Positions 3,607-50,858 are shown, counted from the first letter of the stretch. The stretch: DNA of 64,000 nt from Microcaecilia unicolor (GCF_901765095.1 NW_021963017.1:302253-366252); one strand, 5' to 3'. The notes: generated by a model from the sequence alone, not told the origin. Made by a program: numbers and translations.

Positions 3607-3639
3607 GTTAGTTACTGCTCTGGTACGTCCCACGCGTCT

Positions 3640-15539: not shown

Positions 15540-15640
15540 ACGTGTGGGCAGTTCTGTCCATCGACCAGCAGGTGGAGATAGAAAACTCAGAACTGAGCTG
15601 TCCCATATACACTCAGCCAGCCAGCCCAGTTCTCCAGTAT
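15540..15640 (-). repeat. Fragment homologous to the spacer of the DIRS 3' modules
   Basis: It shares ccatcgaccagcag.tggaga.agaa...ctgagctgtcccatata.actca with 19790-19857, in the opposite orientation. Confidence 0.3.
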
Positions 15641-16959
15641 TTTCTGTTTCCATCAGGAAAAATGGACATGCATACTTTTCTGCTCCTGGTTCTGAGGCCC
15701 TGCTCCTGGCCAGTTAGTCAACTGGTCTCCCAGTCAAGCTTGGCGGGTAAAGGTCTAGTGGGAGTCATATCTGGTGGTTCCAGATCCCTGTCTCTGTTCC
15801 CCATAGAACCCTCCCCTCTCTGATTTGCCCTCTTCTCTCTCTGGTCCCGCAGAACCCTGCCCTCTTTGTTTTCCTCTCTGCTCTCTAGTGCTGCCGGACA
15901 ACATTAAAGCGGTATTAAAAAAAAAAATAAAGAAAAAAGGGCTCTCTTTATCACAGCAGCTTCCTGGGACACGGAGCAGGCATTGCAGGACTGTACTCCT
16001 GTGCAGCTCTGGGACAGCCCCCAGTCGGGGGGCTGTGAGGTGAGAGGTTTTTCAGGGGTGACAGTGGACTGGGGGGTACCCTGTATTGGAACGGCAGTGG
16101 AGAAGCACTGGGGGCCGGTTTCGGCAGTTTGAAAGAAAAGAAAGGCATGATGTCTGCTCTCCTGGCGTTTTCTACCACGGTGGGGGAAGTGCTCCTGACG
16201 GTCAAGGACTGCAGAGGCTGGGTGTGGCTTCCATCTAGCATGCTTCTGTTTGCTCCTGGCCTGGGGCTACAGTTGAGTGGCTGCTTCTTCCATGGGCTGC
16301 GGCTCCCCTGCCTTTGGCAGTGCTGGGTCAACGCTGGGATCAGTCCCGGTAATGCCGTGTCCCTGCCTTATTTGCTTGCCCTCCTCGGTGTGCCTTGGAG
16401 GGCTGGCGTGCCACTAGTTCTAGTTAAAAAAACAAAAAAACAAACACCCTCAAGATAGTCGCGTGAGCTGGGCTGCTTGTCTCCATCCGGCACTTTGTCT
16501 GGGTTCTTTGGGGGCTGTTGGCATTCCTGGAGGTTTGCTCTGCTGGTCCCCTTTGGGTCACTAAGTCAACCCGTTGCACCTCCCCCCCCCCCCCCCTTTT
16601 GGACCACTTGAAGTGTCTGTGCCTTCTCCTGGTCTGTCTATGCAGTCGCCCTCTGGGGCTGCGGTAGTCGCACAAGGGCTTCAGCCTCTTGTAATTTGTC
16701 CCCGATGTGGTCTTCTCCTTGGTCTTCAGGGGTCCTTGTTTCTTCGTTGTGAAGGTCTCTGACCACCGGCAGTCTCTTTGCTCAGGGCTGCCGTGGTCTC
16801 TTAGAGCTTAGGTCACAGACCTCTCATACTTTTCGGGATAGCAGCAGTAGCCTCCTTTCTGGGGACATTTTTTTTTCCTGTATGTGTCTGTGGCAGCAGC
16901 CACTTCTATTCCACAGAGTGTACTTCTCTGCACCTCTAGGGTGTTTTTTTTCTGGAGAG

Positions 16960-18190
16960 TCTCAGCAGCTTCAGCTGTTTTCTCTGTTGAGAGTTGCAGA
17001 TGCCTCCTGGTTTTCACCGGTACGGCAGTCTCCTCTCTTTGGGATTGCGGGCGCCTCCTGGGCTTTGCAGCCTTGGCAGTCTCCCCTCTGCAGAGTTGCA
17101 GATGCCTTTGGGGCTGCACTGCTGCGGCAGTCTCCTTGCTTCTGAGTGGCGTACCTCTCCTGGTCCTCTCGGCCACAGCAGCCTCCTTTTGGGTGGAGTT
17201 GCAGATGCCTAGGGGCATCACAGCTGCGGCAGTCTCCTCTTCGGAATTGCAGACGCCTATAGGGCTTCATAGCCACAGCAATCTCCTATATGAAGTTGCA
17301 GACACCTCCCGGGCGTCACAGCCATGGCAGTCTCCTCCTTTGGAGTAGCCTAGTGGTTAGTGCAGTGGACTTTGATACTAGTGAACTGGGTTCAATTCCC
17401 AGTGCAGCTTCTTGTGACTCTGGGAAAGTCACTTAACCCTCCATTGTCCCAGGTACAATAAGAACCTGTATATACTATGTAAACCGCTTTGAATGTAGTT
17501 GCAAAATCCACAGAAAGGCGGTATATCTGGTACCAGTCCCTCCCTCCCGGTATTCACAGCCACGGCAGTCTCCTCTTCACAGTTGCAGACACCTCCCGGG
17601 CTTCACAGTCACGGCAGTCTTCTCTTTGGTTTCAAATGCTTCCCGGGCTTCACAGCCACAGCAGTCTTCTCTTCGGAGTTGCAGAGGCCTCCTGGGCTTC
17701 ACAGCCACGGCAGTCTCCTCTTTGGAATCTTAGATGCCTCCTGCACTTCACAGCTACGGTGGTCTTTCCTTCGGAGTTGCAGTCACCTCTTGGCCTTCGC
17801 AGCCGAGGCAGTTTCTCCTTTTCAGGATTGCAGTCACCTCTTGCATTCACAGTCCTGGCAGTCTCCTCTCCAGAGATGCAGTTGCCTCCTGGTCTTCTAG
17901 CTGCTGTTTTCTCCACACTTTGGGGTTGCAGTCACCTCCTCAGCTTCACCATTATGGTAGTCTTTTCTCTTTGGAGTGGTTGTCACCTTTGGGCTTTCCA
18001 GCTATGACGGGCCTCTGTCTTCGGAGTTGCAGGTCACTCTGGTAATCCGTAGTCTTGGCAGTCTCCCTTCCTGGAATCCAGTGGTTTTCTTCTCCAGGGC
18101 TACACACTTCTTGGGGGCAACATACAGCTCTGGAGGTCCTCACTGTTTGCAGTCTCCTCTCTTCTGAGTTGCAGTCTCTTCTCTTGGGAG
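16960..18190. repeat. 48-bp minisatellite array of about 25 units, interrupted by a SINE
   Basis: The unit is cacggcagtctcctcttcggagttgcagacacctcccgggcttcacagc, with variants. A SINE sits at 17342-17527. Six-frame ORFs across the array show repeated peptides and are artefacts. Confidence 0.8.
17342..17527 (+). mobile_element. tRNA-derived SINE inserted into the minisatellite
   Basis: The sequence ggagtagcctagtggttagtgcagtggactttg...gtcacttaaccctccattg...gtaaaccgctttgaatg interrupts the 48-bp periodicity. Confidence 0.6.
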
Positions 18191-19546
18191 TTGAGGTCCC
18201 AGTTTCTGTGGTTGCTGCTGTTCTGAATTGATGCCATTGGGGGTATTTTCTCGGCTACAGGCTTCCCAGTCGGCTCCAGTAGTTCAGTGTTACTGCGGCA
18301 GTCTGCTTTCTCTGGAGTGGCGGACATCTTACAGCTGGAGGTTCGGTCAGCTTCTGCAGTCTTTGGACTTGGGATCTCGTTGGGAATGGCTGATTCATGC
18401 CACAGCGGCGGCCAGAATGTTGAGCTCCTGCCAACACTTGGGGAGAGCAAGTTTCCTCACGGCTCAGCAACGTTGCTGTTGGTGAGGTGGATTTGCCTAA
18501 TCCTCAGTGTGCTCATCCTAGAGCATGGACTCAGTGCAGGTCCTGGAACCTATGTCTGTGGCCAGGGAAGTGGTTCCTGGTGGGGAGGGATAGCTTCTGT
18601 CTATGGCAGTTCTCCCTTCTCTTTCGGTGATCCCCAGCCCCCCAGAGTTGACGCCGGCAGTGGCCTTGGTCCGCCAGGCAGGGCATGCACTGGGAGTTGT
18701 TCCCACAGCCGCCCTCCCTCAAGAGTTCCGCTTCCTATTTTGTATTGGGGCTGGCTACGGCATTCTTCCTTGACTTTCCATACAGAGGAGGTCCCTTCTG
18801 GAAAGAGGTTCGCCTTTGGAACCCCTTTCGAACTTTGTGTTCGGTTTGATTTGTCTGCCTTGTGCTGCGGACTCTGCCACATCTGTCCTTTGGCCCTCTC
18901 CGGAAGGCCAACAATATGGTTCATACGTTGCGTGAGGTGTTTTTGATGTCTCTTACCTCTGGAGTGCGGATTTCTGGGCGCGGTAGTGCTGGGACCTGTT
19001 CCTCTGTTGCCGGAGGCTGGGGTCTCAGTTCTGTCCGTCCCTCTCTGCCTCAGTTGGTTTCAGTATTCCAAGTCAGTTGGTTGGCGTATCATCTGGTGTT
19101 TCGCCGGGATGTTGCATTTCGCCTCACTGAGGCTTCTGGGTGGCCGTTGGAGTTGTTTGCACTTTCTTGAGGCTTCTCCTTCCTTCTGATGTTTGGTTCG
19201 TCTGTTCAGCCCTTTTAGGGATGACAGAGGTTGAGTCTCATGGCGTCCTTGGTCACCTTTGCCTCTTGGTTGGTAGGGACGCTTACTTCAGCTGTCTCTA
19301 CGTGCTGGATAGCAGCATCCTGTGCAGCATCCATCTTGTTGGCCCGGTGGCTTTTGGCAGAGCAGCAACATGGTTGTTATTGTATGCGTTTGCTGGGCTT
19401 CTCAGTGGATATTGTGGCCGTTCGGCGGGGGTGGTCAGGGCTTCGGTTCTCCAGGCAGCGGAGCTGGGGTCCCACCCTGTTAGGATTGCTTTTGAATATC
19501 CCATGTGTCCTGGAATTGTGGGAAGTAACATAATGAAGGAGAAATT

Positions 19547-19920
19547 AGGGCTTACCTGATGATAATTTTCTTTCCATTAGTTCTTCACAGTATTCCAGGA
19601 GCCCACCCCTGGACCTGTTTTGGTGGCAGGCTTTACAGCTTATGCACGGGCTGTCACTCTTTTGTCTATCTCTAAAGATACCGGGGACCTTCCGAGAGTC
19701 CGATTGTTTGGTCGTTTACAGTTGTAGAGGTTTTTGGTTTTATTCCTTCTGCTTGTTTAGGCAAATACTGGAGAACTGGGATGGCTGGCTGAGTATATAT
19801 GGGACAGCTCAGTTCTGTCTCCATCTGCTGGTCGATGGACAGAACTACCCACACATCCTGGAATAGTGTGAAGAACTAATGGAAAGAAAATTATCAGGTA
19901 AGCCCTAATTTCTCCATAGA
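19547..19920 (+). mobile_element. Solo DIRS 3' terminal module, made of an ICR, a 252-bp spacer and a right terminus
   Basis: Positions 19547-19605 are the reverse complement of 19858-19920 (cctggaatagtgtgaagaac plus taatggaaagaaaattatcaggtaagccctaatttctcc). The layout is the same as copy A at 3640-4186. Confidence 0.55.
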
Positions 19921-22017: not shown

Positions 22018-22778
22018 GTAGGTACAAAGTAAATCTTCTCTTTCTGAGTAAAGGATCATGGATTTGATATACTGCCTTTGTGGTACAGTCAGTGGTTTAC
22101 ATTTATTATAAAACAATGACAGTGGCTCCCTTAACTGTATATGTTCACTGTGGGACCTCAGATAGTATCCACTTATATTATAAATCAGCTCCCACTATCT
22201 TCTGTCAGTGTCAGTTCAAACAATCATTAATCAATATATTTCTCTTGGTGACCTCAGCTGTGCACATTACCAGTTTTACTGAATGGCAATGGGTTCTGCC
22301 CACCTTTCTTCATTGGTTCACACTATTAATGCATTTATTTTTTATCATTATTATTAACATTTAATTTTTGTAGTCAAATGCTCATCTTATATAGATATAT
22401 CGGACCCAGGGGTTGATGTTACTGTCCGACATGCATGTTTCACCCTTGTCAGGGCTGTTTCAAGGACTACCCCCTATGAAAAATACATAAAGATTAACTT
22501 CAACGGTATAGTGACAGAGATATAAAGTTAATTTCTCATACCACCCCACCGCTATATACCGCTAAACGGTAGAGGGGATGTATATAGCGGTGGGGTGGTA
22601 TGAGAAATTAACTTTGTATCTCTGTCACTATACTGTTGAAGTTAATCTTTAAGTATTTTTCGTAGGGGGTAGTCCTTGAAACAGCCCTGACAAGGGCGAA
22701 ACATGCATGTCGGACAGTAACATCAACCCCTGGGTCCGATATATCTATATAAGATGAGTATTTGACTACAAAAATTAA

Positions 22779-23828
22779 ATGTTACCTAGAGCCCTCTTAT
22801 ATAAGAGTAGACGGGAGGGAGGGTTGGGGATGCCCAACCTTCAATGGTATTATTGTGCAGCACAGTCTAGGGCGGCAGTAGATTGGTTTCGACGAGAGGA
22901 CCACAAGCTGTGGGTTGACATTGAACAAAATCTGGTGGGTTCTCGTAAGTTGGGACATCTAATGTGGATCGCAGGTAATGATAGGGGTCGGGTGGATAAA
23001 TTTCCACCTACAGTACAAGCTACTTTTCACTACTGGGACCTCCTGTTTCCCCAGCAGCAACCTTTGGTGTCAGGACTAGCCCCGATAGTGGATAACCCTC
23101 TGTTTGCCCCGGGTATAGGAAACACTACATTCTGTAAATGGGCGGAGGCGGGTTTGGACATGTTGGGTCAATTACATGTGGGGGAGACTATTGTACCCTT
23201 CGAGACTCTTGTGACTGACTTCGGTCTTTCACGGGGGGATCGATACGCCCACTTGCAACTACAACACTTTTTGAAAGGGAAGGCGTATATGGGATGCCTG
23301 AAATGGGATACTCACCCGTTGGAGGAGGTATGTGTAGACCCCAAGGGCACGAAAGGATTGATTTCCAAACTGTACACTTACTTAGTGAAAGGCTCCAAAA
23401 CATCCCTATTGCATAGAAAACGGTGGGAACAGGAGCTACAGTTCTCGTTACCGGAGACGGGTTGGCTGACCTTAGAGAGGAGTCTGTTGCGGGTCTCTCG
23501 TGCAGTGGACATGCAGGAGAATGCTGTAAAGGTATTCTGTAGATGGTACCTGACCCCGGTTAGATTACACCATATGTTTCCGCAGGTTTCAAAGGGCTGC
23601 TGGAGGAATTGTGGGGGGGAGGGGACTATGGGTCACATATGGTGGCTATGTCCTAAGGCACAGGCCTATTGGAGGGGTGTGCACTCTCGACTTCAAGTAT
23701 GGCTCGGCAGTTCTGTGCGGTGGCATCCTTTGATCTTCCTATTAGGACAGAGACCTGAGGGCATTACATCTGATCAGTGTGGATTGGTAAGACAGTCCTT
23801 GGTGGCGGCCCGAGTCCACTTGGCCTGA
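22779..23828 (+). CDS. C-terminal part of LINE ORF2, comprising the post-RT region and a Cys-rich CCHC-like domain
   Basis: The 349-aa ORF reads KSRREGGLGMPNLQWYYCAAQ...CRWYLTPVRL...CWRNCGGEGTMGHIWWLCP, which is the L1-type C-terminal cysteine motif. Its ATG is supplied by the target-site duplication. Confidence 0.65.
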   Translation: MLPRALLYKSRREGGLGMPNLQWYYCAAQSRAAVDWFRREDHKLWVDIEQNLVGSRKLGHLMWIAGNDRGRVDKFPPTVQATFHYWDLLFPQQQPLVSGLAPIVDNPLFAPGIGNTTFCKWAEAGLDMLGQLHVGETIVPFETLVTDFGLSRGDRYAHLQLQHFLKGKAYMGCLKWDTHPLEEVCVDPKGTKGLISKLYTYLVKGSKTSLLHRKRWEQELQFSLPETGWLTLERSLLRVSRAVDMQENAVKVFCRWYLTPVRLHHMFPQVSKGCWRNCGGEGTMGHIWWLCPKAQAYWRGVHSRLQVWLGSSVRWHPLIFLLGQRPEGITSDQCGLVRQSLVAARVHLA

Positions 23829-28342: not shown

Positions 28343-28979
28343 CAGTGGCGTAGCTACGGGTGAGCCTGGGTGGGCACAGGCCTAGCCATTCTTGCCTCAG
28401 GCCCATCGTTTAGTGGCCCATATGGCCCCCAAAGCACCTCAGTGGTGGCATCTCACGCTCCTCTCTCCCTCTTCTCCGTTCATAGCACGGTATCCCTCTC
28501 TGAAACCCCCATCCCCACCCCACCATCCCTCCAGGCCTATCTCAGAGCCGTCACTGGTGGCGATTCCTATAGGCAGCCTGCGTTGGCCCTGCAGGCTTCC
28601 CTCTACCGTGTCCCACCCTCGACGATGTCACTTCCTGTTTTTTTCACTGGCGGGGACACGGTAGAGGGAAGTCTGCAAGGCTAGCGCAGGTTGCCAGTAG
28701 GAATCGCCGCTGGTGACAGCTCTGAGATAGACCCCCGTGGGAGGATTCAGAGAGAGATGGCGGGGAGGGGGGAAGGAGCAGATGCTGGATCTGGGACAGC
28801 GGAGAGGGAGAAAGATGAAGATATGTGAGTAGGGGCAGAGAGGATGGAAGGAAAGACAGAGGGAGAGATGGATGCAAGGGCAGAGGGGAAGGGTATGTAT
28901 GTATAGGGGTGTGGGCGGGAAGGGCCCACCCAGGTTAACTCTGGGCCCACCCAAAATGAGAGGTCTGGCTACGCCCGTG
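28343..28979. mobile_element. hAT-like MITE of about 637 bp with an 8-bp TSD, gcttattt
   Basis: The TIRs are cagtggcgtagc...gctacgcccgtg. The TSD gcttattt lies at 28335-28342 and 28980-28987. It is related to the MITE at 13885. An end fragment of the same family is at about 27490-27606. Confidence 0.55.
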
Positions 28980-29990
28980 GCTTATTTTATAAAGACATAT
29001 CCATGTGTATTTTGGGGCTCTTTTACTAAAGTGAAGTAAGTTTTTTTTTTTTTTTTTTTTGAGGAGGGGGTTTGCACTTACCACACATTAACAGCCAAAT
29101 TTAGTGCATGATAAGTGCACAGGCTTTGTCTGTGCAATAACTGTTGGGGCGTATCCAACATGCCTTCTGCAGTTTCTGCGTAGACACATTTTCTACTAAG
29201 CCTTAACATCAAGTGTGATCAGCAAAGATGCACCTAATGCCACCTCTTGCGGAGACATTAAGTTCACCAGTGCTAACTGCACATTTGACAGCTTTGCTAC
29301 TCACTATGCGCATGCACTCCTACCAGCAGAGGGAGACTGAGAACACTAAACGTCTTATACAAGTAGCCTGTGTAGACCTTCTATTAACCAGTATTTTCTC
29401 AGTCTCAGGAAAGGGTAGATGTGTGCAGCCTGTGCAGTGTACTCAGTCTGGTAGGCCCGTTTGGGGTTTCTAGGTTGGGTTGTAAATGTTAGAGAACCCA
29501 CACTTGGATCTCTATTACAGGGTGTAAGTCCTAAGGGGCTTCTTATTCCCTGTGGGGTGTCACACCCGGGTGGCCGGGTCCCTCCCCCTGTGCTCTTCCT
29601 CTGGAGGACTGCTTGACCTCGGCTACAGACCTCGTTCTGTACCCTTAAGACATTTAGGCATCAGCAACGAGGTTTAAAAAAAAAAAAAAAAATAAACGTT
29701 TTTAAAAGGCGGCTATTTTGGCCGTTCTTGTGGCAGTCCAGAGATAAAACGTCTTCAAGGGCGTTCTTGCCTTAGGCGGTTTTGCCTATTAGTCTGTCAG
29801 AGCACAAAGCAACTGTTTGGTTTTATTGTGTTCGCGGCCATTATGTCTAAGCCGGCGAGGTGTCGGTTTTGCGCGAAGCGCAGCGTTGAAGTGAAAGGTG
29901 ATCTTATATTTAATGTTAATTTCCAATCAAATTACTTAAAAAAGGAGAAAAAAGACTCGTATGTCCCAGCTTGGCAGCATGTAATACATT

Positions 29991-30172
29991 CTTCTCCGAG
30001 GACAAGCAGGCTGCTTGTTCTCACTGATGGGTGACGTCCACGGCAGCCCCTCCAATTGGAAACTTCACTAGCAAAGGCCTTTGCTAGTCCTTGCGCGCCC
30101 ATGCGTACCGCGCATGCGCGGCCGTCTTCCCGCCCGAACCGGCTCGTGTTCGTCAGTCTTCTTTTGTCCGCG
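29991..30172 (+). repeat. Left inverted terminal repeat of the main DIRS copy
   Basis: It reads ttctccgaggacaagcaggctgcttgttctcactgatgggtgacgtccacggcagcccctccaattggaaacttcactagcaaaggcctttgctagtcc.... Its reverse complement is found at 35925-36131. Confidence 0.7.
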
Positions 30173-30569
30173 CTCGGGACGGTCGTGTTTTGCGCCGTTT
30201 CGTGCCCCTCAAAGTTGACCTTCGCGTGTCTTCGCGATTTCGTTTAAAAAAAAAAAAAAAAAAAAGAGAAGACCTCGGTCTTGTCCCTTCCCGTGTGTCC
30301 AGTTTGTTTCCCCGACCTAAGTTTCCTTTCGCTTTCGGGGTAGGCCTTTTTTGGAGCCTCAGTACGGGTTTTTTCTCTCCCTATTTTTGGTGCCCTTAGT
30401 CGCCATTACGAATTTTGATTTCGCCGGCGTGATTTTTCCGCCCATGTCCGAAGTCTCCCAGCGGCTTCAAGAAGTGCACCCAGTGCGCCCGGGTAATCTC
30501 GCTCACTGATAGGCACGCGTCGTGTCTTCAGTGTCTGGGGGCTGGGCACCGCCCGCAGGCCTGTAGTCT

Positions 30570-32678
30570 TTGCGCTCTTTTACAGAAGAGGACTCAGGTT
30601 GCGAGATTGGCCCAGTGGAACGTGTTGTTCTCGGGCTCTTCGTCGACAACAGCACCGGAGTCATCGAGTGCATCGATGTCGGCAGCATCAAGACCTTCGA
30701 CCTCGGCATCGACTGCATCAAGGTATCGACCCTCTGCATCGTCGGTACCGAAATGTCGGTGTCGGTGGTACCGGGACCTCCACTGTTGCTGATGTCGTCG
30801 GACGGTGGTGCTTCGACTGGAGTGCAGGTGAGGGCTGTCCATTCCCCTGCTGGTGGCGGTGAGCCTTCGGGTGGGTCTCCCCCTACCCTGAGGGCTCCTG
30901 CGGTACAGCCCCCCCCCCGAGACCGACCTTCTTCAGCCTCGGCCCCGAGGAAGAGACGGCTGGATTCTACGTCCTCCTCGTCGGTACCGAGAAGCTCCAG
31001 TGACATGCTTCGTTTGAAAAAATCAAAGAAGCATCGACACCGGTCTCCTTCCCGCATCGGTACCGAGAGCTCTGGGTCGCCGAGGGAGTCGGCACCCAGT
31101 AGGCATCGGCACCGGGAGGACCGCTCACCCTCTGTTCAGGAGGTGTCGATGCACTCCACCTTGGACAGCCCGGAACAGCCTCCACGCCCGGAACAGACTC
31201 TGACCTCGACGCCTGCATCGGCTTCCATGTCTTTCTCCACAGCCGCTCTGTACGAGAGTCTCCGGGCCGTTCTCCCGGAGATCCTGGGAGAGCTGTTGCG
31301 CCCTTCCCCTCCGGTACCGGGGGTGCTTGCGCCTCCGGTACCGTTGAGTGAGGCGCCAGCTGGCCCCTTGCCCGGGGTGAGGTCTCCGACATCAGTGCCG
31401 CTTGCGGTACCGACTGCGGCCGCCTCCCAGGAAGGCTCCCCGACGACGTCGGCGGAGGGAGCTTCGCCGGTGCTGGCGAGGGAGTCTACCTCTCGACGCT
31501 CCCACCGTGGCCGTGTTTCCACGGAGTCGAGTCGGGCACGGCTTCAGACACAGGTTCATGAACTTGTGTCTGATACCGATGGTGAGGCCTCGTGGGAGGA
31601 GGAGGAGGACATCAGATATTTCTCTGACGAGGAGTCTGATGGCCTTCCTTCTGATCCCACTCCCTCCCCTGAAAGGCACCTTTCTCCTCCCGAGAGTCTG
31701 TCTTTTGCGGCCTTTGTCCGGGAGATGTCTACGAACATCCCCTTCCTGGTGATTGTGGAGGATGAGCCCAGTGCTGAAATGTTTGAGCTCTTGGACTATC
31801 CTTCTCCACCTAAGGAAGCGTCCACAGTACCCATGCATCATGTCCTAAAAAAGACATTGCTGGCGAACTGGACCAAGCCTTTAACTAATCCCCACATTCC
31901 CAAGAAGATCGAGTCCCAGTACCGGATCCATGGGGACCCAGAGCTGATGCGCACTCAGTTGCCTCACGACTCTGGTGTGGTGGATCTGGCCCTAAAGAAG
32001 GCTAAGAGTTCTAGGGAGCATGCTTCGGCGCCCCCGGGCAAGGACTCTAGAACCTTAGACTCCTTTGGGAGGAAGGCCTACCATTCTTCTATGCTCGTGG
32101 CCAAAATTCAGTCTTACCAGTTCTACACGAGCATCCATATGCGGAACAATGTGCGACAGTTGGCGGGCTTGGTGGACAAGCTCCCTCCTGAGCAAGCCAA
32201 GCCATTTCAGGAGGTGGTCAGGCAGCTGAAGGCGTGCAGAAAATTCCTGGCCAGAGGGGTATATGATACCTTTGATGTTGCGTCCAGGGCCGCTGCTCAA
32301 GGTGTGGTGATGTGCAGACTCTCATGGCTGCGTGCCTCCGACCTGGAGAATAGGATCCAGCAGCGGATTGCGGACTCCCCTTGCCGAGCGGACAACATTT
32401 TTGGAGAGAAAGTCGAACAGGTGGTAGAGCAGCTCCACCAGCGGGATACCGCTTTCGACAAATTCTCCCGCCGGCAGCCTTCAGCATCTACCTCTTCAGG
32501 TAGACGTTTTTATGGGGGAAGGAAGACTGTTCCCTACTCTTCTGGTAAGCGTAGGTACAATCCTCCTTCTCGACAGCCTGCGGCCCAGTCTAAGCCCCAG
32601 CGCGCTCGCTCTCGTCAGCAGCATGCGCCTCAGCAAGGCCCCGCGGCTCCCCAGCAAAAGCAGGGGACGAGCTTTTGA
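30570..32678 (+). CDS. Gag-like ORF1 of the main DIRS copy (702 aa, Ser/Pro/Arg-rich)
   Basis: It is the longest ORF upstream of pol. Its C-terminal part is more than 90 percent identical to the Gag fragment of copy C (61841-62428). It ends at TGA 32676-32678. The first ATG is not certainly the true start. Confidence 0.55.
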   Translation: MRSFTEEDSGCEIGPVERVVLGLFVDNSTGVIECIDVGSIKTFDLGIDCIKVSTLCIVGTEMSVSVVPGPPLLLMSSDGGASTGVQVRAVHSPAGGGEPSGGSPPTLRAPAVQPPPRDRPSSASAPRKRRLDSTSSSSVPRSSSDMLRLKKSKKHRHRSPSRIGTESSGSPRESAPSRHRHREDRSPSVQEVSMHSTLDSPEQPPRPEQTLTSTPASASMSFSTAALYESLRAVLPEILGELLRPSPPVPGVLAPPVPLSEAPAGPLPGVRSPTSVPLAVPTAAASQEGSPTTSAEGASPVLARESTSRRSHRGRVSTESSRARLQTQVHELVSDTDGEASWEEEEDIRYFSDEESDGLPSDPTPSPERHLSPPESLSFAAFVREMSTNIPFLVIVEDEPSAEMFELLDYPSPPKEASTVPMHHVLKKTLLANWTKPLTNPHIPKKIESQYRIHGDPELMRTQLPHDSGVVDLALKKAKSSREHASAPPGKDSRTLDSFGRKAYHSSMLVAKIQSYQFYTSIHMRNNVRQLAGLVDKLPPEQAKPFQEVVRQLKACRKFLARGVYDTFDVASRAAAQGVVMCRLSWLRASDLENRIQQRIADSPCRADNIFGEKVEQVVEQLHQRDTAFDKFSRRQPSASTSSGRRFYGGRKTVPYSSGKRRYNPPSRQPAAQSKPQRARSRQQHAPQQGPAAPQQKQGTSF

Positions 32679-34600
32679 CTGGCTCCACAGAGCATAGCCG
32701 ACATCAACGTATCAGTGCCGGGCGATCTGCCGGTCGGGGGGAGGTTGAAAGTTTTTCACCAAAGGTGGCCTCTCATAACCTCCGACCGTTGGGTTCTTCA
32801 AATAGTCCGGCAAGGATACACCCTCAATTTGGCCTCGAAACCTCCAAATTGCCCACCGTGAGCTCAATCCTACAGCTTCCAGCACAAGCAGGTACTTGCA
32901 GAGGAACTCTCCGCCCTTCTCAGCGCCAATGCGGTCGAGCCTGTGCCATCTGGGCAAGAAGGGCTGGGATTCTATTCCAGGTACTTCCTTGTGGAAAAGA
33001 AAACGGGGGGATGCGTCCCATCCTAGACCTAAGGGCCCTGAACAAATATCTGGTCAAGGAAAAGTTCAGGATGCTTTCCCTGGGCACCCTTCTTCCCATG
33101 ATTCAGGAAAACGACTGGCTATGCTCTCTGGACTTGAAGGACGCCTACACGCACATCCCAATACTGCTAGCTCACAGGCAGTATCTGCAATTTCAGCTGG
33201 GCACACGTCACTTCCAGTACTGTGTGCTACCCTTTGGGCTCGCCTCTGCGCCCAGAGTGTTCACGAAGTGCCTGGCTGTAGTAGCAGCGGCGCTTCGCAG
33301 GCTGGGAGTACACGTGTTCCCCTATCTCGACGATTGGCTGGTGAAGAACACATCCGAGGCAGGAGCTCTACAGTCCATGCAGATGACTATTCGCCTCCTG
33401 GAGCTACTGGGGTTTGTGATAAATTATCCAAAGTCCCATATTCTCCCAGTACAGAGACTGGAATTCATAGGAGCTCTGCTGGATTCTCGGATGGCTCGTG
33501 CCTGTCTCCCAGAGGCGAGAGCCAACAACTTGTTGTCCCTCGTCTCTCGGGTGCGAGCGTCCCAGCAGATCACAGCTCGGCAGATGTTGAGATTGTTGGG
33601 CCACATGGCCTCCACAGTTCATGTGACTCCCATGGCCCGCCTTCACATGCGATCTGCTCAATGGACCCTAGCTTCCCAGTGGTTTCAGGCTGCTGGGGAT
33701 CTAGAAGACGTGATCCACCTGTCCACGAGTTTTCTCAAATCCCTGTATTGGTGGACGATTTGGTCCAATTTGACTCTGGGACGTCCTTTCCAAATTCTTC
33801 AACCACAAAAAGTGCTGACTACGGATGCGTCTCTCCTGGGGTGGGGAGCTCATGTCGATGGGCTTCACACCCAGGGAAGCTGGTCCCTCCAGGAACGCGA
33901 TCTGCAGATCAATCTCCTGGAGTTACGAGCGGTCTGGAACGCTCTGAAGGCTTTCAGAGATCGGCTGTCCCACCAAATTATCCAAATTCAGACAGACAAC
34001 CAGGTTGCCATGTATTACATCAACAAGCAGGGGGGCACCGGATCTCGCCCCCTGTGTCAGGAAGCCGTCAGCATGTGGCTCTGGGCTCGTCGTCACGGCA
34101 TGGTGCTCCAAGCCACATATCTGGTACGCATAAACAACAGTCTGGCCGACAGGTTGAGCAGGATCATGCAACCTCACGAGTGGTCACTCAACTCCAGAGT
34201 AGTGCGCCAGATCTTCCAGGTGTGGGGCACCCCCTTGGTAGATCTCTCTGCATCTCGAGCCAACCACAAAGTCCCTCAGTTCTGTTCCAGACTTCAGGCC
34301 CACTGCAGACTGGCATCGGATGCCTTCCTCCTGGACTGGGGGGAAGGTCTGCTGTATGCTTATCCTCCCATACCTCTGGTGGGGAAGACTTTGTTGAAAC
34401 TCAAGCAAGACCGGGGCACCATGATTCTGATTGCTCCTTTTTGGCCGCGTCAGATCTGGTTCCCTCTTCTTCTGGAGTTGTCCTCCGAAGAACCGTGGAG
34501 ATTGGAGTGTTTTCCGACCCTCATCACACAGGATGAGGGGGCGCTTCTGCATCCCAACCTCCGGTCCCTGGCTCTCATGGCCTGGATGTTGAGAGCATAG
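32679..34600 (+). pseudogene. Pol of the main DIRS copy, comprising RT, RNase H and a C-terminal domain. It is in frame with Gag beyond the TGA. It carries an internal TGA at 32859 and a -1 frame change at a G6 run (33003-33008).
   Basis: Frame 0 reads SVPGDLPVGGRLKVFHQRWPLITSDRWVLQIVRQGYTLNLASKPPNCPP*...LVEKKTGG. Frame 2 then reads MRPILDLRALNKYL...YLDDWLV...TTDASLLGWGAHV.... Confidence 0.7.
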
Positions 34601-34611
34601 ACTTTGCCTCT

Positions 34612-35614
34612 TTGGGTCTGTCAGAGGGTGTCTCCCGTATCTTGCTTGCTTCCAGGAAAGATTCCACTAAGAGGAGTTGCTTCTTTTTATGGAGGAGGTT
34701 TGCCGTCTGGTGTGACAGCAAGGCCCTAGATCCTCGCTCTTGTCCTACACAGACCCTGCTTGAATACCTTCTGCACTTGTCTGAGTCTGGTCTCAAGACC
34801 AACTCTGTAAGGGTTCACCTTAGTGCAATCAGTGCATACCATTACCGTGTGGAAGGTAAGCCGATCTCAGGACAGCCTTTAGTTGTTCGCTTCATGAGAG
34901 GTTTGCTTTTGTCAAAGCCCCCCGTCAAGCCTCCTACAGTGTCATGGGATCTCAATGTCGTTCTCACCCAGCTGATGAAACCTCCTTTGAGCCACTGAAC
35001 TCCTGCCATCTGAAGTACTTGACCTGGAAGGTCATTTTCTTGGTGGCAGTTACTTCAGCTCGTAGAGTCAGTGAGCTTCAGGCCCTGTAGCCCAGGCCCC
35101 TTACACCAAATTTCATCATAACAGAGTAGTCCTCCGCACTCACCCTAAGTTTTTGCCGAAGGTAGTGTCGGAGTTCCATTTGAACCAGTCAATTGTCTTG
35201 CCAACATTCTTTCCCCGTCCTCATTCCTGCCCTGCTGAACGTCAGCTGCACACATTGGACTGCAAAAGAGCATTGGCCTTCTATCTGGAGCGGACACAGC
35301 CCAACAGACAGTCCGCCCAATTGTTTGTTTCTTTCGATCCCAACAGGAGGGGAGTGGCTGTGGGGAAACGCACCATATCCAATTGGCTAGCAGATTGCAT
35401 TTCCTTCACTTACGCCCAGGCTGGGCTGGCTCACAATGTCAGAGTAATGGCTGCGTCAGTGGCCCACTTGAAGTCAGCCACTATTGAAGAGATCTGCAAA
35501 GCTGCGACGTGGTCATCTGTCCACACATTCACATCTCATTACTGCCTGCAGCAGGATACCCGACGCGACAGTCGGTTCGGGCAGTCAGTGCTTCAGAATC
35601 TGTTCGGGGTTTAG
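34612..35614 (+). pseudogene. Tyrosine recombinase of the main DIRS copy, disrupted by a frameshift near 34985 and a TAG near 35095
   Basis: ORF 34612-34998 and ORF 35153-35614 are collinear with the intact YR of copy A. A shifted frame in between reads FEPLNSCHLKYLTWKVIFLVAVTSARRVSELQAL*. Confidence 0.6.
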
Positions 35615-35774
35615 AATCCAACTCCACCCCCCTAGTCCCATGTTTATTCTGTTCCAGGCTACACTCTCAGTTAGTTGGATAAATTGTTAGGTCAATCTCA
35701 GTTATGTCCTCGCCGTTGCGAGGCCCAATTGACCTTGTTTGTTGTTTTTGAGTGAGCCTGGGGGCTAGGGATAC

Positions 35775-35873
35775 CCCATCAGTGAGAACAAGCAGCCTGC
35801 TTGTCCTCGGAGAAAGCGAATGCTACATACCTGTAGAAGGTATTCTCAGAGGACAGCAGGCTGATTGTTCTTA
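35775..35873 (+). repeat. Internal complementary region (ICR) of the main DIRS copy
   Basis: The sequence ccatcagtgagaacaagcagcctgcttgtcctcggagaa is the reverse complement of the left-ITR start. The sequence agcgaatgctacatacctgtagaaggtattctcagaggacagcaggctgattgttcttac is the reverse complement of the right-ITR end. Confidence 0.75.
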
Positions 35874-35924
35874 CAAACCCGCCCGCCTCCCCTTTGGAGT
35901 TGTGTCTTCCCTTGTCTTTGTCTT

Positions 35925-36131
35925 GCTACATATGAGACTGACGAACACGAGCCGGTTCGGGCGGGAACACAGCCGCGCATGCGCGGTACGCATGGGCGCA
36001 CGCGGACTAGCAAAGGCCTTTGCTAGTGAAGTTTCCGATTGGAGGGGCTGCCGTGGACGTCACCCATCAGTGAGAACAATCAGCCTGCTGTCCTCGGAGA
36101 ATACCTTCTACAGGTATGTAGCATTCGCTTT
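35925..36131 (+). repeat. Right inverted terminal repeat of the main DIRS copy, with a 3' extension of about 30 nt
   Basis: It is the reverse complement of 29991-30172. It ends ...ggagaataccttctacaggtatgtagcattcgcttt. Confidence 0.7.
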
Positions 36132-37157
36132 TGTGCCAGCATTCAATGGACTCCAGCCTTATCGGTTTAGAAAAAAAAATCCTCCTTTCTAAAACATTTT
36201 ATTATGATTTATTTTGGGGTATAGGGCACTTTAAAAATGTCTTTATCATGATGTATTCAAACATTAAAGAATATATTTAAGAGCACTTAGCTTTTGAGGT
36301 TGACACCCCAACCGGGCTCTCCGTTTCACTATTACTCAAGCTTCTTCAGGGTACTAAGTACTGTACGTTCTGAATAAACCTAAAAAGATGATATAAAATA
36401 CATCAATGTTGATAATATATGTGAGAAATTGTGTTTTTTAGAAAGGAGTTTTTTTCTAGACCGATGATAAGACTGAAGTCCGTTGAATGCTGGCACAAAC
36501 AATGTTATTACTTGCTGCCCAGCTGGGACATATGAGATCTTTTTCCTCCTTTTTTTTTTTTAAGTAGTTTGTTTGGAAATGAACATTAAATATAAGGTTT
36601 ACAATCATCTACACTCTTCAGCTGTATAGATTGTTCACACGTTGGATATTTCGCTGAAGTATTTGCTTATTTAGAAGTTTGTACACTAATGGCAAAATTG
36701 TTGCATGAGAAAGGCACAGCGAAGGTAACAAGGTGGATGATGTCGATGAAACTACTACTGGACTCAAAAAAAGTTCACAGCAAGAGTTATTGATAAAGAC
36801 TGGACTCGACACGATCGTTGTTTCGGCCGCTCTGGCCTGCTCAGGGGTCCCTGTCTATTGATGTTCAGTTAGTCCCTGAAGAGAAAATCTGAAATATTTA
36901 GTAAAGCCAAAGTACGCTCTGGTGAAGAAACTTCACTGTAGCACTTAAGTACGAGCGGCACTCTTCAGTGATTGTCATCATTGCTGCATGTCCATTAATG
37001 CAAAAAAAAAAAAAAAGGAAATCAGCCATTTTACTGCTGTGGTTAAAATGGCCTTAGCGTGAGGGGAAAACCTGTGTAAGGGTGCACTAAGGACAGTTTC
37101 TACTGCAGCTTAGTAAAATGACCCCCTAATGAAAGCCTCACAGTCAGCTATTAAAAA

Positions 37158-41093: not shown

Positions 41094-42572
41094 AGCTTAT
41101 TTTCGAAAGTGAAAGACGCCCATATTTCAACCAAATCAGTATAATCGGAAGCCGATTTTGGGCGTCCCCAACTGCAGTCTGTCACGGGAACGGACAAAGT
41201 TGATGGGGGCGTGTTGGAGGCGGGGTGAAGGTGGGACTGGGGCGTGTTTATCGGCGAGGAGAGATGGGCGCACTTGCCCGATAATGGAAAAAAGAAGGGC
41301 GCCAGAAGCGAGAATTTGGGTCACTTTTTCTGACTCTTTTTTCCCATGAACAAGTCCCCAAAAAGTGCCCCACATGCCCAGATGACACAGAGGGAATCGG
41401 GGATGACCTCCCCTGACTCCACCCCTGTGGTCATTAACCCCCTCCCACCAAAAAAAAAAAGAACTTTAAAACTTTTTTTTCCAGCCTGTATGCCAGCCTC
41501 AAATGTCATAAAAAGCTTCCTCCGCAGATCACTGAAGAACCATCTTTTCGAAAAGATTTATGGAAAGAACCAAACACATAAAGTCCACACTACTGTTCAT
41601 TAATGCATCCATACATTCACCTCTGACTTCTCATTCCCGTATTATCACATCATTCATACCTTTTAATCACAGAAAGATATATACCATATGTCTTCATGCC
41701 TTTTTATCGCCCTCTAAGCTCCCATTGTTCCTTCCAAAGTTTTAATGTTTGTGTCCATTGTTTACATTCCTTAACGACACCTCAATTGTTTCGCATAACT
41801 ATGCAAAATGTAATCCATAACCAATCTGTAACAAATTGTATTTCCAACATTAACTCATATTGTAAGCCACACTGAACCCGCAAAAAGGTGGGAAAATGTG
41901 GGATACAAATGCAATAAAATAAAAAAATAAAAAAAATACCCAGCTCCATGACAGCAGTATGTAGGTCCCTGGAGCAGTTGTTAGTGGGTGCAGTGGACTT
42001 CAGGCAGGGGACCCAGGCCCATCACCCCCTAACCTGTTACACTTGTGCTGGTAAATGGGAGCGCTCCAAACCTGCCCCCAAAACCCCACTGTACCCACAT
42101 CGAGGTGAACCCTTCAGCCATAAGTGCTATGGTAATAGTGTAGAGTTCGGGGCAGTGGGTTTTGGGGGGGGGCTCAGCACCCAAGGGAAGGGAGCTATGG
42201 ACTTGGGAGGTATTTTAATTTTTTTTTTAATTGTTACAAGTGCCCCCCTAGGGTGCCCGGTTGGTGTCCTGGCACGTGAGGGGGGACCAGTGCACTACGA
42301 ATCCTGGCCCCTCCCACGACCAAATGCCTTGGATTTGTTCGTTTTTGAGCTGGGCACCTTCGGTTTCCATTATCGCTGAAAAACGATACCGCCCAGCTCA
42401 AATCCGCACAAATCCGATGCATTTGCTTGGCACAAACCGTATTATGGAAAAAAAAAGGTGGACGCCCATCTTTTTCGAAAATACGGTCTGTCCCGCCCCT
42501 TTCACGTACCCGTCCTCGGAGATAGACGCCCATGGAGATGGGCGTTCGTGGTTCGATTATGCCCCTCCACGT
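41094..42572 (+). repeat. Unclassified composite interspersed repeat, copy R1. It has a part A and a part B, separated by an internal 400-bp insertion that carries a SINE-tail fragment.
   Basis: It starts cagcttattttcgaaag and ends ttcgattatgcccctccacgt. It is homologous to 59683-60988 and 55781-56832. Confidence 0.5.
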
Positions 42573-45467
42573 GTGATATGTTTATATTGTCAATATGTCA
42601 ATATGTCAAGAGCATATTGAACAAGGCTGGACTTCCTAAGCATTTACATATTGAGATAAGTACTCTTGCCAAGCTTTAATGTATATGAAAATAGTGTCTC
42701 TTATGCATCTGCTTGTTGGGACTTGAAATTTATGAGAAATTTAGTTGTGAGTGGAGTTTTTTTTAAGACCCATGATTGATAAGGCTCCTCATTATACAAA
42801 AGGCTTGTCCTTTAAGAACGAGGAACAGCCGAATGACCTGAGTCTTTTTTCTCCACTTTTTTGTATTTTTACTAGAGTGTTCCCTCAAACACGTTGCATA
42901 ATAGGTAGGATAGTGATAATATTATTGAAAAGTAGATCCTACTTATTCCCGAATTACTACAGGGTAAATGAAATCTCTCATTATTGTGTTATGTATTGCA
43001 CATATGTAATATGTAAACTGCTTTGGTTGTACCACAGAAAGGCAGAATATCAAGAACCTCATAAATACAAACCATAATTCCACTCCCCAAAGAGATTGGG
43101 TATTTTATATTTTTTTGGTGTATTTTTTTTGTAATTTTTTATAAATGTATTGAAAATTTTTTTTCAAGTATACAACAAAAGGGCAAAATAACAATATACA
43201 GAACTAAAAAGATCCATCAGATACAGTACAAAAACTGTTATACTGCATAGCTAAAAGTGAGACGATATAGGGGATAGGTGATAGGTAAATCTAAAACATG
43301 ATGACCTATGCACTAGTGCAGTTGTTAGCTGAACAGTAAGAGTCTAATGGTGCCGAAGACTGGAGAATGTGTGTTTTTATGGGATTAAAAAAAAATCTGG
43401 CTGATTATTCAAAGCAATTTAAGCAGACAGGAGAGGCTCCTGCCTGCTTAAATTGCCTGTTGCCACCTAACCAGGGGCTGAATATCGCCTCTGACCGGCC
43501 CCAGGAAAAGTAGGCAGGTCAGGAGTGGTACAGGGGTGGAGTTAGAGAGGAGCCCAGGGTTATGCGGATGTCGGCACCCGCATAGCTAAGAGAGCAAATT
43601 TAGGACACCTTAAAAGCTGTCTTAATTTGACTCACTTAGCAATGCAGGTGCTGGCACTTAATATTGGCAGGCACTGAATATTGGGTGGGGCCTGCTCAAC
43701 TTGTTTTGTAGTGCTGCAGTCCCTCTCCTGGGACCCCCCAGAAAAATGAATATAGAGAGTTCTAAGATTAAGCTTCCACTGTTAGAAACTCGCCTGAGGA
43801 ATGTTTGTTTATGTTGTTGTCTAAATGCTCTTAATTGTTTAGATGAAACCAAGAGATTTTATAAGAGGAATTTTTGAAAAGAAGATTTATACCTTTGAAG
43901 TAAGGTGAATAAAGAAATGACATTTTGCCTGAATTTAAGAGCATAGTCTTTTATTTGGTGTAGAGGAAACTTGTGGACAGATAGCAGCCTAGGATGAAAA
44001 GATGGAGGGCCTGCCATTACAGGGGGCAGGGTGAAGTGCAAACAGAGGTCCTCCTTCTGGACAGCACCCATGTTGACCCCAGTATGGGAAATCAGGGCCG
44101 CCGAGAGACTGAGCCAGGGCAGGGCCACCGCCCTTCCCCCCCCCCCCCCCCCCCCCAGGATCACCATCTCTGCCTCCATACCTTGGCTGGCTGGGCTCCT
44201 GGGCCCCGCCAGCAGGTGGCCTTCCTTTAGCGCTGCTTAATGCTCTGCCGCATTGCCTGCCCCTGCGGCTGCTTTTTTTTTTATCATGTTGAGCATGCTG
44301 GGTTTCAAAACTGAGCATGCGCAGCCTGATGGCCCAGCAGCCACTTGGCAGGCAGGCAGTGTGGCAGAGGAAAGAGCAACGCCTGCTGTGTCTGCTCCTT
44401 CGGGTCCTCCCCAGCCTCCAAGGGGGGCCCAGCTCCATAGTTTTCTCTCCTGCTCCTGTCGGACGCAATCACCCAGGTCCCGTCAGGAGCAGGGGAGAGA
44501 GAGAAAGGGAGACACTGGTGCCAGGCCCCCCTTGGAGGCCCAGGGATTTTGCTCCCCCTGCCCCACCTGTCAGTGGCCCTGTGGGAAATCATTGCCCAGA
44601 CAACAGAGTGAACCTGCAAACAGACACCAGGGTGGCCCCTAGCTGTGATAGCTTACATAGATAGAGTGAAGTTGTTCCCAGAGGTGGGTTATGGTTAGCA
44701 TTTACACACAGACCATAGTCTTTTACGCAGCTTAGTGGTTAACTCCCTTTGAGGGTTTGAGGGCGTACGATGTACTATAAAGCACAGTCTCCTTGTAAGT
44801 AGATATTTTGTTCTCCTACACACGGTGTTTATCATTTCAAAGAGATTGGGTATGGGTGGGATGGGTTGGGTCAGTGTGGAGGGAGAACGGGGTACATTAT
44901 GTCAGCAGTGGTAGTGATGATTAGATGGGGGATCTTAGTTGCTCCAAGCTTGATGACTGTGTAAGTCAGTTCAATTGCATGTTTTTTGTATTGATCACTG
45001 ATACTTTGCATCTTTTATTGTTGGTACAGTCTACTATGGGAGTTAGAGGATAGTTATCATGCGTATATAGTGGGATGGGGGGTGGGGATTTGATGACAGA
45101 TTATTTTTTCCCTTTCCTTCTCTGTTGTATGTTCCTCATGTTTATCTTTGTATATGCATTTGATTGGATGTACTCTTTCATATGGTCATCAATAAAAAAT
45201 TTTGAACCATACACACAGACTGAAAAAACAAAATACATGTGTATCCGTGTAGATTAAGTCAGAAAAATTATGTGTGCTAAAGGGCAAGTGTAAATGAAAG
45301 TGCATAAATTATCTGGAGTAGGTTTTCAAAGTGCGTACTTTGACTTTGAAAATTTACCGGTTCTTGCACAACAAAGGATATGTGTACTATTAATATGTTC
45401 ACACAGTTATTAAATTATTCCTGAATACTATTTAAGGATTGCTCTTTATATTTGTATTTTATTCTAG

Positions 45468-50643: not shown

Positions 50644-50858
50644 GTAATATACTCTAATACAGTGTTTTCCAAGCCCTGTCCTGGAGTACCCCTTGCCAGT
50701 CAGGTTTTCAGGATATCCACAATGAATATGCGTGAAAGAGATTTGCATATAATGGAGGCAGTGTATACAAATCAAGTTCATTCATATTCATTGTGGATAT
50801 CCTCAAAACCTGACTGGCAAGGGGTACTCCAGGACTGAACTTGGGAAACACTGCTGTA
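50644..50858. mobile_element. Hairpin MITE-like element
   Basis: The sequence cagtgttttccaagccctgtcctggagtaccccttgccagtcaggttttcaggatatccacaatgaatatg pairs with its reverse complement at 50770-50858. The flanks ctgtaata.actcta appear on both sides. Confidence 0.45.

What the first reader, a model, noticed from the sequence alone, without database searches (positions are those of the whole stretch)
29899..36610. DIRS inserted into one arm of a pre-existing foldback element, and the opposite arm preserves the empty site
Sequence 29899-29990 plus 36133-36195 is the reverse complement of 36436-36610. The DIRS therefore splits the left arm of a palindromic element of about 570 bp. The intact right arm reads ...gtaataacattg|tttgtgccagc.... 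The interrupted arm reads ...gtaatacattc[DIRS]ttttgtgccagc.... This pins the element termini to plus or minus 1-2 bp. It also shows that integration made no target-site duplication, as expected for YR-mediated recombination rather than integrase or TPRT.
Basis: seen in the sequence. Interest (0 to 1): 0.55.

Follow-up and report, generated by a model that had tools for sequence, protein, structure and literature searches.

The report
DIRS retrotransposon inside an older foldback repeat
A dead 6.1-kb DIRS-type retrotransposon sits inside one arm of an older 556-bp hairpin repeat; the intact arm shows it inserted at a TT without duplicating or losing host DNA, as the published DIRS model predicts, so this is a clean but ordinary example.

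Summary
Window 29903-29993 plus 36130-36194 is the reverse complement of 36436-36596 (BLAST E 5e-24 and 1e-14). The two matches abut in the intact arm and share only 2 nt (TT).

The interrupting DNA (29992-36131) is a DIRS1-like retrotransposon:
- 168-nt inverted terminal repeats (ITRs), 95% identical;
- a 30-nt right extension;
- an internal complementary region (ICR) pairing with both termini (40/40 and 60/62);
- gag (LAP2alpha-like), RT/RNase H/Dam-like pol, and a Cre-like tyrosine recombinase.

The copy is dead: pol carries a stop and a frameshift, and the recombinase needs two frame changes.

The ICR reads GGAG-AAA-GCGA, so the predicted circle junction is CGC-TTT-CTCC. The empty site is CATTG-TTT-GTGCC. 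The occupied junctions are CATTC-TT-CTCC and CGC-TTTT-GTGCC. The extra DNA is exactly 6138 nt, which equals the ICR-predicted circle. There is therefore no net target duplication. The TT seen at both ends is crossover identity carried by the element, not a target-site duplication.

The limits are minor: the arm ends are 29903 and 36596, and transposon status of the foldback is unproven (no target-site duplication, no second copy found). This is a new member of a known kind and of low-to-moderate interest.

The parts
29903..29991 (.). Foldback left arm, outer part (host sequence up to the DIRS left junction)
   Evidence: Pairs with 36500-36596 on the opposite strand. Ends ...GTAATACATTC.
29992..36131 (+). 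DIRS1-like retrotransposon, degenerate copy. The net inserted DNA is 6138 nt; the TT at 29992-29993 and the TT at 36130-36131 are the two copies of the crossover dinucleotide.
   Evidence: Termini are set independently by ICR complementarity and by the empty-site alignment.
29992..30159 (+). Left inverted terminal repeat (ITR)
   Evidence: Pairs with 36101-35935, 160/167 identical with 1 gap. Contains the 22-nt palindrome ACTAGCAAAGGCCTTTGCTAGT at 30067-30088.
30570..32678 (+). ORF1, gag-like (702 codons)
   Evidence: Open frame. Weak match to Pfam LAP2alpha, E 0.003, below the curated cutoff. The LAP2alpha-specific domain is reported to derive from DIRS gag (PMC4495291). Several homologues carry PF11560.
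32706..34600 (+). pol: RT, RNase H and Dam-like methyltransferase domain. It is broken by an in-frame stop at 32859-32861 and a frameshift near 33006-33026.
   Evidence: RVT_1 E 5e-19 and RT_RNaseH E 5e-4. Frame change seen in tblastn and translations. 8 of 17 collinear homologues match PF05869 Dam. YLDDWL lies at 33323-33340.
34612..35614 (+). Tyrosine recombinase gene, readable only through two frame changes (near 34990 and near 35090)
   Evidence: The repaired product is 50-56% identical to 330-340-aa proteins of coelacanth, turtles and salamanders. A profile of 25 of them matches Cre/Tre recombinase at E 6.5e-8, including the H-x-x-R, W and Y region. Here SARR lies within 35052-35078, HNVR within 35429-35458, W within 35504-35518 and Y within 35531-35548.
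35775..35874 (+). Internal complementary region (ICR). The left ICR is 35775-35814, the right ICR is 35813-35874, and they overlap at AA 35813-35814. It reads ...CCTCGGAG-AAA-GCGAATGC...
   Evidence: 40/40 complementary to the left terminus 29992-30031 and 60/62 complementary to the right terminus 36070-36131.
35935..36101 (+). Right inverted terminal repeat (ITR)
   Evidence: Inverted copy of 29992-30159.
36102..36131 (+). Right extension: terminal 30 nt that pair with the right ICR but are not part of the ITR
   Evidence: The ITR match stops at 36101, while the ICR match runs on to 36131. The length falls within the 26-34 nt reported for vertebrate DIRS1-like elements (PMC3266345).
36132..36194 (.). 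Foldback left arm, inner part (host sequence resuming after the DIRS)
   Evidence: Pairs with 36436-36497. Starts TGTGCCAGC.
36195..36435 (.). Foldback central loop region, AT-rich
   Evidence: Lies between the arms and is only weakly self-complementary. No Rfam family matched.
36436..36596 (.). Foldback right arm, uninterrupted. The empty site is AAA at 36497-36499, which reads CATTG-TTT-GTGCC on the other strand.
   Evidence: The left-flank and right-flank alignments meet here and overlap by 2 nt, at 36498-36499.

Best explanation
An AT-rich 556-bp inverted-repeat (foldback) sequence existed first. A DIRS1-like retrotransposon later integrated into its left arm.

The inferred pathway is the standard DIRS route. 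The element's cDNA was completed and closed on the internal complementary region (ICR), giving a 6138-bp circle whose junction reads CGC-TTT-CTCC. The element-encoded Cre-like tyrosine recombinase then carried out conservative, reciprocal strand exchange between that junction and a TT in the target (CATT[C/G]-TT-TGTGCC).

This produced CATTC-TT-CTCC... at the left junction and ...CGCT-TT-TGTGCC at the right junction. No host nucleotide was gained or lost. The copy has since decayed by stops and frameshifts.

Shown directly:
- the nested structure;
- the exact termini;
- the exact conservation of length;
- the TT shared by target, circle junction and both product junctions;
- the coding content.

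Inferred:
- the circular intermediate;
- catalysis by the tyrosine recombinase;
- that the left arm originally read C where the right arm reads G.
For: - The arms align across the junction with no gap, and four equally good joins each remove exactly 6138 nt.
- The ICR pairs 40/40 with the left terminus and 60/62 with the right terminus. The two halves overlap by AA, so the predicted circle is 29994-36128 plus TTT, which is 6138 nt.
- There is no similarity between target and circle junction beyond the TT: 0/12 and 1/12 matches on the two sides, by hand comparison of the sequences.
- The element encodes RT/RNase H, a Dam-like domain by homology and a Cre-like recombinase.
- Arm divergence (8% plus indels) exceeds ITR divergence (4%).
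- Three related turtle copies have the same architecture. Their termini overlap in their own ICR by only TT, TT and T, and their flanks are unrelated and unduplicated.
- The literature describes a 3-bp circular junction, termini of the form NTT, AAA junctions in XtDIRS2/3 and AcDIRS2, and integration without target-site duplication (PMC3266345). The ICR is essential for retrotransposition (PMC7192593). Lack of target-site duplication is treated as diagnostic for DIRS (PMC8969392).
Against: - The empty site is a paralogous arm about 92% identical, not the true pre-insertion allele, so the junction is known only to +/-1 nt. The base 5' of the TT differs in all three sequences (C in the left arm, G in the right arm, T in the circle).
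- The strict 3-bp model predicts TTT at both junctions, whereas TT and TTTT are seen. This requires either a 2-nt crossover, a tolerated mismatch, or a later substitution or slip.
- Neither a circular intermediate nor recombinase activity can be shown from sequence. Experimental work on Dictyostelium DIRS-1 found mostly linear single-stranded cDNA (PMC7192593).
- This is a single event.
Confidence: 0.85

Rival explanations
1. The TT at both junctions is a genuine 2-bp target-site duplication made by staggered cleavage. The element proper would then be CTCC...CGCT.
For: Under that parse the empty site has TTT and the occupied site has TT plus TTT, an apparent gain of TT.
Against: - The element's own ICR carries AAA between the complements of the two termini, so TT(T) is part of the replicated element.
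- The extra DNA equals the ICR-predicted circle to the base.
- No DDE integrase or endonuclease was seen among the ORFs examined; a Cre-like recombinase is present.
- Related turtle copies show the same overlap within their ICR.
- The published model agrees (PMC3266345).
Confidence: 0.04
2. The DIRS was there first. The region was then duplicated in inverted orientation, and the DIRS was precisely lost from the right arm, for example by recombinase-mediated excision.
For: Tyrosine recombinases can in principle catalyse the reverse reaction. Nothing in the window supports this directly.
Against: - It needs two extra events.
- The arms are about twice as diverged as the ITRs, so the inverted repeat is older than the insertion.
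- The DIRS termini are inverted repeats, so host recombination between them would invert rather than delete.
Confidence: 0.03
3. The host sequence is not a mobile foldback or MITE family member. It is a one-off local inverted duplication (palindrome). The DIRS conclusions are unchanged.
For: - No target-site duplication of any standard length flanks 29903 and 36596.
- No second copy occurs in the 64-kb window.
- No true copy was found in the metagenome scan.
Against: - The window contains about nine other, unrelated palindromic repeats of 43-430 bp. At least one has Tc1-like CAGTG termini, so hairpin-type repeats are common in this genome.
- The sequence is 33% GC, has no long ORF (longest stop-free stretch 79 codons) and forms a near-perfect hairpin, as MITEs typically do.
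- At 8% arm divergence a short target-site duplication could have decayed.
Confidence: 0.35
4. The arm similarity is due to chance, or the inverted repeat is an assembly artefact (a chimeric foldback read).
For: None.
Against: - E-values of 5e-24 and 1e-14 were obtained within the 64-kb window.
- The arms differ by 12 substitutions and 5 indels, unlike the near-identical arms produced by read artefacts.
- The two matches are exactly collinear.
Confidence: 0.01

Closest known systems
Vertebrate DIRS1-like retrotransposons with an AAA circular junction (XtDIRS2 and XtDIRS3 of Xenopus tropicalis, AcDIRS2 of Anolis carolinensis; PMC3266345, Table 3)
   Same: - Size about 6 kb.
- ITRs of 100-170 nt.
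- Right extension of about 30 nt.
- ICR halves of about 40 and 60 nt.
- AAA junction with T-rich NTT termini.
- gag, RT/RNase H/MT and tyrosine recombinase genes.
- No target-site duplication.
   Different: Protein identity to any named sequence found here is only about 50-56%, so this is a distinct family from an unidentified host. This copy is non-functional.
DIRS-1 of Dictyostelium discoideum (Cappello et al. 1985 model; tested in PMC7192593)
   Same: - Inverted terminal repeats.
- An ICR that templates both termini.
- An encoded tyrosine recombinase.
- A tendency to lie within other repeats.
   Different: - The gene order and overlaps differ.
- DIRS-1 preferentially inserts into other DIRS-1 copies.
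- Here the target is an unrelated AT-rich hairpin repeat.
Cre/loxP and lambda Int type conservative site-specific recombination
   Same: - The recombinase family is the same: a profile match to Cre at E 6.5e-8, with R, H-x-x-R, W and Y conserved.
- The product conserves every nucleotide of both partners.
   Different: - The identity shared by the partners is only 2 nt, against 6-8 nt overlap regions.
- No recognisable recombinase-binding repeats are present in the target.
- The biochemistry is untested.
MITEs and foldback-type repeats
   Same: The host sequence is short, AT-rich, non-coding and almost entirely self-complementary.
   Different: - No target-site duplication.
- No further copies found.
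- The termini do not match any superfamily signature that I could recognise from memory.

Membership tests
DIRS1-like retrotransposons (order DIRS) | Reverse transcriptase plus RNase H of the Ty3/gypsy-related type | tested here: met
   RVT_1 E 5e-19, above the curated cutoff. RT_RNaseH E 5e-4, just below its cutoff; 13 of 17 homologues match it.
DIRS1-like retrotransposons (order DIRS) | Encodes a tyrosine recombinase instead of a DDE integrase | tested here: met
   After two frame repairs the product has full-length homologues at E 1e-121. The family profile matches Cre/Tre at E 6.5e-8. R, H-x-x-R, W and Y are present. The gene is not intact in this copy.
DIRS1-like retrotransposons (order DIRS) | Inverted terminal repeats | tested here: met
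   29992-30159 pairs with 36101-35935, 160/167 identical.
DIRS1-like retrotransposons (order DIRS) | Internal complementary region whose two halves pair with the start of the left terminus and the end of the right terminus and overlap by a few bases | tested here: met
   35775-35814 pairs 40/40 and 35813-35874 pairs 60/62. The overlap is AA within AAA.
DIRS1-like retrotransposons (order DIRS) | Methyltransferase (Dam-like) domain downstream of RNase H | tested here: inconclusive
   The window copy alone does not reach any Pfam threshold. However, it aligns collinearly with homologues, 8 of 17 of which match PF05869 (best E 4e-9), and it shares their conserved LYAFPP / APxWP motifs.
DIRS1-like retrotransposons (order DIRS) | Integration without target-site duplication, at a short sequence identical to the circle junction | tested here: met
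   The paralogous empty site shows zero net gain or loss (6138 nt equals the ICR circle) and a shared TT.
MITE / foldback transposable element (host sequence) | Long terminal inverted repeats and no coding capacity | tested here: met
   About 155-161-nt arms at 92% identity. Hairpin dG is -136 kcal/mol against -44 for shuffles. The longest stop-free stretch is 79 codons.
MITE / foldback transposable element (host sequence) | Flanking target-site duplication | tested here: not met
   The flanks ...AAGGTGAT and GTTTACAA... share no direct repeat of 2-10 nt at the repeat boundary. The duplication could have decayed.
MITE / foldback transposable element (host sequence) | Multiple dispersed copies in the genome | not testable with these tools
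   There is no second copy in the window. The metagenome scan gave only a 23-nt chance match. The source genome is not available.

The most novel reading that the evidence does not exclude
The DIRS recombinase may need only a T or TT of identity, and the crossover register may float within the T-rich junction tract rather than sit at a fixed 3-bp core.

In the window copy and three turtle relatives, the termini overlap in the ICR by TT, TT, TT and T. Among the turtle copies these overlaps lie at different positions of the TTTTCTTCTT tract. The base 5' of the TT at the left junction is always target-type.

The ICR would then serve to rebuild termini that integration leaves variable.

A second nest at window 1556-4190 extends this reading. 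It is the 3' part of a DIRS, flanked by CCTT on both sides, inside another DIRS RT gene. It could mean that sub-genomic circles, or 5'-truncated intermediates, are also integrated by the recombinase.
Probability: 0.2. Interest if true: 0.5.

Novelty: new member of a known kind. Interest (0 to 1): 0.25.

Why it matters
Empty sites for DIRS insertions are rarely available, because these elements leave no duplication and often sit in repeats. Here a paralogous arm gives a base-level view. The insertion adds exactly one ICR-defined circle length, and the only sequence shared with the target is TT. That is direct, if single-case, support for the conservative-recombination model of DIRS integration. 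It also suggests the '3-bp junction' may in practice be a dinucleotide. It does not change the model. Practically, it gives exact termini for annotating this DIRS family and places the window in a region with several DIRS-type elements.

Tried and rejected
Beyond 29903 and 36596 only 6/15 bases match, by hand alignment of the flanks.
- I looked for a target-site duplication around the foldback (TA, TWA, TTAA, 8 bp, 9-10 bp) and found none.
- A crossover within the CATTC motif shared by the left flank and the element's right end does not reproduce the observed junctions. This was reasoned from the sequences.
- Extended homology between target and circle junction is absent (0/12 and 1/12 matches).
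- Other copies in public data were not found. The DIRS left terminus gave 0 hits in metagenome contigs. The foldback arm pattern gave one contig that shares only the 23-nt seed.
- Rfam gave no match anywhere in the window.
- Look-ups of coelacanth and Pleurodeles relatives returned no DNA.
- The other DIRS-type elements in the window gave no base-level target motif. Copy 61828-64000 lacks termini. Elements D and E are too decayed. Element B lacks its left end.
Full report
**1. The observation**

The sequence is as described. BLAST of the flanks against the window gives two matches. 29903-29993 matches 36596-36498 (E 2e-23 to 5e-24). 36130-36194 matches 36499-36436 (E 1e-14).

The two matches are adjacent on the right arm and overlap there by 2 nt. 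I re-joined the left arm and aligned it globally with the reverse complement of 36436-36596. This gives 138 identities in 150 ungapped columns, 15 gap columns in 5 indels, and no gap at the join.

Four joins score equally (29990|36129 through 29993|36132). Each removes exactly 6138 nt.

The reconstructed element is 556 nt and 33% GC. It folds into a single long DNA hairpin, dG -136 kcal/mol against -43.7 +/- 4.4 for shuffles.

**2. The inserted block is a DIRS1-like retrotransposon**

The non-coding architecture is as follows:

| Feature | Coordinates | Evidence |
|---|---|---|
| Left and right inverted terminal repeats (ITRs) | 29992-30159 and 35935-36101 | 160/167 identical |
| Right extension | 36102-36131 | follows the right ITR |
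| Left half of the internal complementary region (ICR) | 35775-35814 | 40/40 complementary to 29992-30031 |
| Right half of the ICR | 35813-35874 | 60/62 complementary to 36070-36131 |

The coding content is as follows:
- ORF1 (30570-32678) is gag-like, with a weak LAP2alpha match. That domain is reported to derive from DIRS gag (PMC4495291).
- pol has RVT_1 (E 5e-19) and RNase H. Its C-terminal part is collinear with homologues, 8 of 17 of which match Pfam Dam.
- The third gene (34612-35614) is a tyrosine recombinase. After two frame repairs it is 50-56% identical to 330-340-residue proteins from coelacanth, turtles and salamanders. A profile of 25 of these matches Cre/Tre recombinase at E 6.5e-8, over both the core-binding domain and the H-x-x-R...W...Y region.

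The copy is dead. pol has an in-frame stop at 32859-32861 and a frameshift near 33006-33026, and the recombinase has two frameshifts.

The best pol homologues are only about 50% identical (Pleurodeles, Chrysemys). The host species is therefore not identified.

**3. The junction at base level**

The ICR reads ...CCTCGGAG-AAA-GCGAATGC.... The four relevant sequences are:

| Sequence | Reads |
|---|---|
| Predicted circle junction | ...CATTCGC-TTT-CTCCGAGG... |
| Intact arm (empty site) | ...AACATTG-TTT-GTGCCAGC... |
| Occupied left junction | ...ATACATTC-TT-CTCCGAGG... |
| Occupied right junction | ...CATTCGC-TTTT-GTGCCAGC... |

T residues are conserved: 3 in the target plus 3 in the circle equals 2 plus 4 in the product. 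The ICR-predicted circle is 29994-36128 plus TTT, which is 6138 nt. That equals the extra DNA measured against the empty site.

The simplest reading is reciprocal exchange within a TT. The target is CATT[C]-TT-TGTGCC and the circle is CATTCGCT-TT-CTCCGAGG. This reading needs only one difference between the two arms (C versus G, 5' of the TT).

The strict 3-bp version (TTT with TTT) needs one further change.

Outside the TT the target and the circle junction are unrelated: 0/12 and 1/12 matches, by hand comparison.

The TT at both ends could be mistaken for a 2-bp duplication. The ICR shows that one copy is brought by the element.

**4. Order of events**

The arms differ at 8% of aligned sites plus indels. 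The ITRs, which the ICR/ITR repair model predicts to be identical at integration, differ at 4%. The foldback is therefore older than the insertion.

The reverse scenario (duplication after insertion, then precise loss from one arm) needs extra events and contradicts these divergences.

**5. Relatives and literature**

Three related elements in the assembly GCA_018859375.1 have the same layout. name this assembly as Chelydra serpentina.
- Each copy's termini overlap within its own ICR by TT (L001), TT (L003) and T (L004).
- Their flanks are unrelated and unduplicated.
- The overlaps lie at different positions of the TTTTCTTCTT junction tract.
- The base 5' of the overlap at the left junction differs from the ICR in every case.

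Piednoel et al. (PMC3266345) describe the following: the ICR halves overlap on a 3-bp circular junction; 23 of 28 elements begin and end with NTT; XtDIRS2, XtDIRS3 and AcDIRS2 have AAA junctions; and integration is by recombination with an identical genomic trinucleotide, without target-site duplication.

Malicki et al. (PMC7192593) showed experimentally that the ICR is essential. They found mostly linear single-stranded cDNA, so the circular double-stranded intermediate remains a model.

Goubert et al. (PMC8969392) list lack of target-site duplication as a curation criterion for DIRS.

**6. The host sequence**

I could not show that the foldback is a transposon.
- No target-site duplication flanks it.
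- There is no second copy in the window.
- The one metagenome hit is a 23-nt chance match.

On the other hand, the window holds about nine other unrelated palindromic repeats, one with Tc1-like CAGTG ends. A MITE-like origin is therefore plausible. I put the one-off local palindrome rival at 0.35, leaving a MITE-like origin somewhat more likely.

**7. Verdict**

The mechanism is the known DIRS pathway.

What this case adds is a base-exact empty site. It shows zero net change of host DNA and only a TT of shared identity. This is a good textbook example, not a new kind of system.

Interest is 0.25. Novelty is a new member of a known kind.

Noticed in passing
window 1-4320: A second DIRS nest from a different family (junction ...TTTCACC-TTC-...).
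- The right ICR at 3665-3726 is 62/62 complementary to the right terminus at 4129-4190.
- pol homology runs to 1553 (RFVGS), then jumps about 110 residues ahead.
- The missing RT stretch begins right after the terminus (4186-4283: TFQYKALPS...KVFTKCIVVVAAYLHKQ).
- Removing 1556-4190 restores an in-frame RFVGS|FQYKALP.
- CCTT lies at both junctions (1552-1555 and 4187-4190).
- No left terminus is present.

This looks like the 3' 2.6 kb of a DIRS inserted into the RT gene of another DIRS.
   Followed up: partly
window ~4643-8962 and ~15513-19915: Two further DIRS-structured elements of about 4.3-4.4 kb. Both have ITRs and an ICR (76-98% complementarity) but almost no detectable coding sequence; the only remnant is a 32-residue recombinase fragment at 8269-8364. 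They are either old or non-autonomous derivatives. Their junctions are too decayed for base-level analysis.
   Followed up: partly
window 61828-64000: A partial copy of the same DIRS family as the main element. It is 95% identical to 32078-34259. Homology begins within the gag region and the copy is cut off by the end of the window. It has more frameshifts than the main copy.
   Followed up: partly
window 10240-10548, 13938-14053, 22355-22784, 28534-28733, 42321-42425, 43414-43456, 50660-50853, 59170-59341, 60814-60885: Nine other palindromic (self-reverse-complementary) repeats of 43-430 bp. They are unrelated to each other and to the foldback in the finding. 22355-22784 has arms 94% identical. 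50660-50853 has CAGTG...CACTG ends like Tc1/mariner-derived MITEs.
   Followed up: no
window 30247-30266 and 29676-29692: A 20-nt A run inside the DIRS 5' untranslated region, between the left ITR and gag. A 17-nt A run also lies about 210 nt upstream of the foldback. Neither is explained.
   Followed up: no
L001 3058-9406, L003 58560-64923, L004 2757-9040 (assembly GCA_018859375.1, named as Chelydra serpentina): In three related turtle DIRS copies the crossover inferred from each copy's own ICR lies at different positions of the TTTTCTTCTT junction tract. This hints at a floating register rather than a fixed cleavage site.
   Followed up: partly
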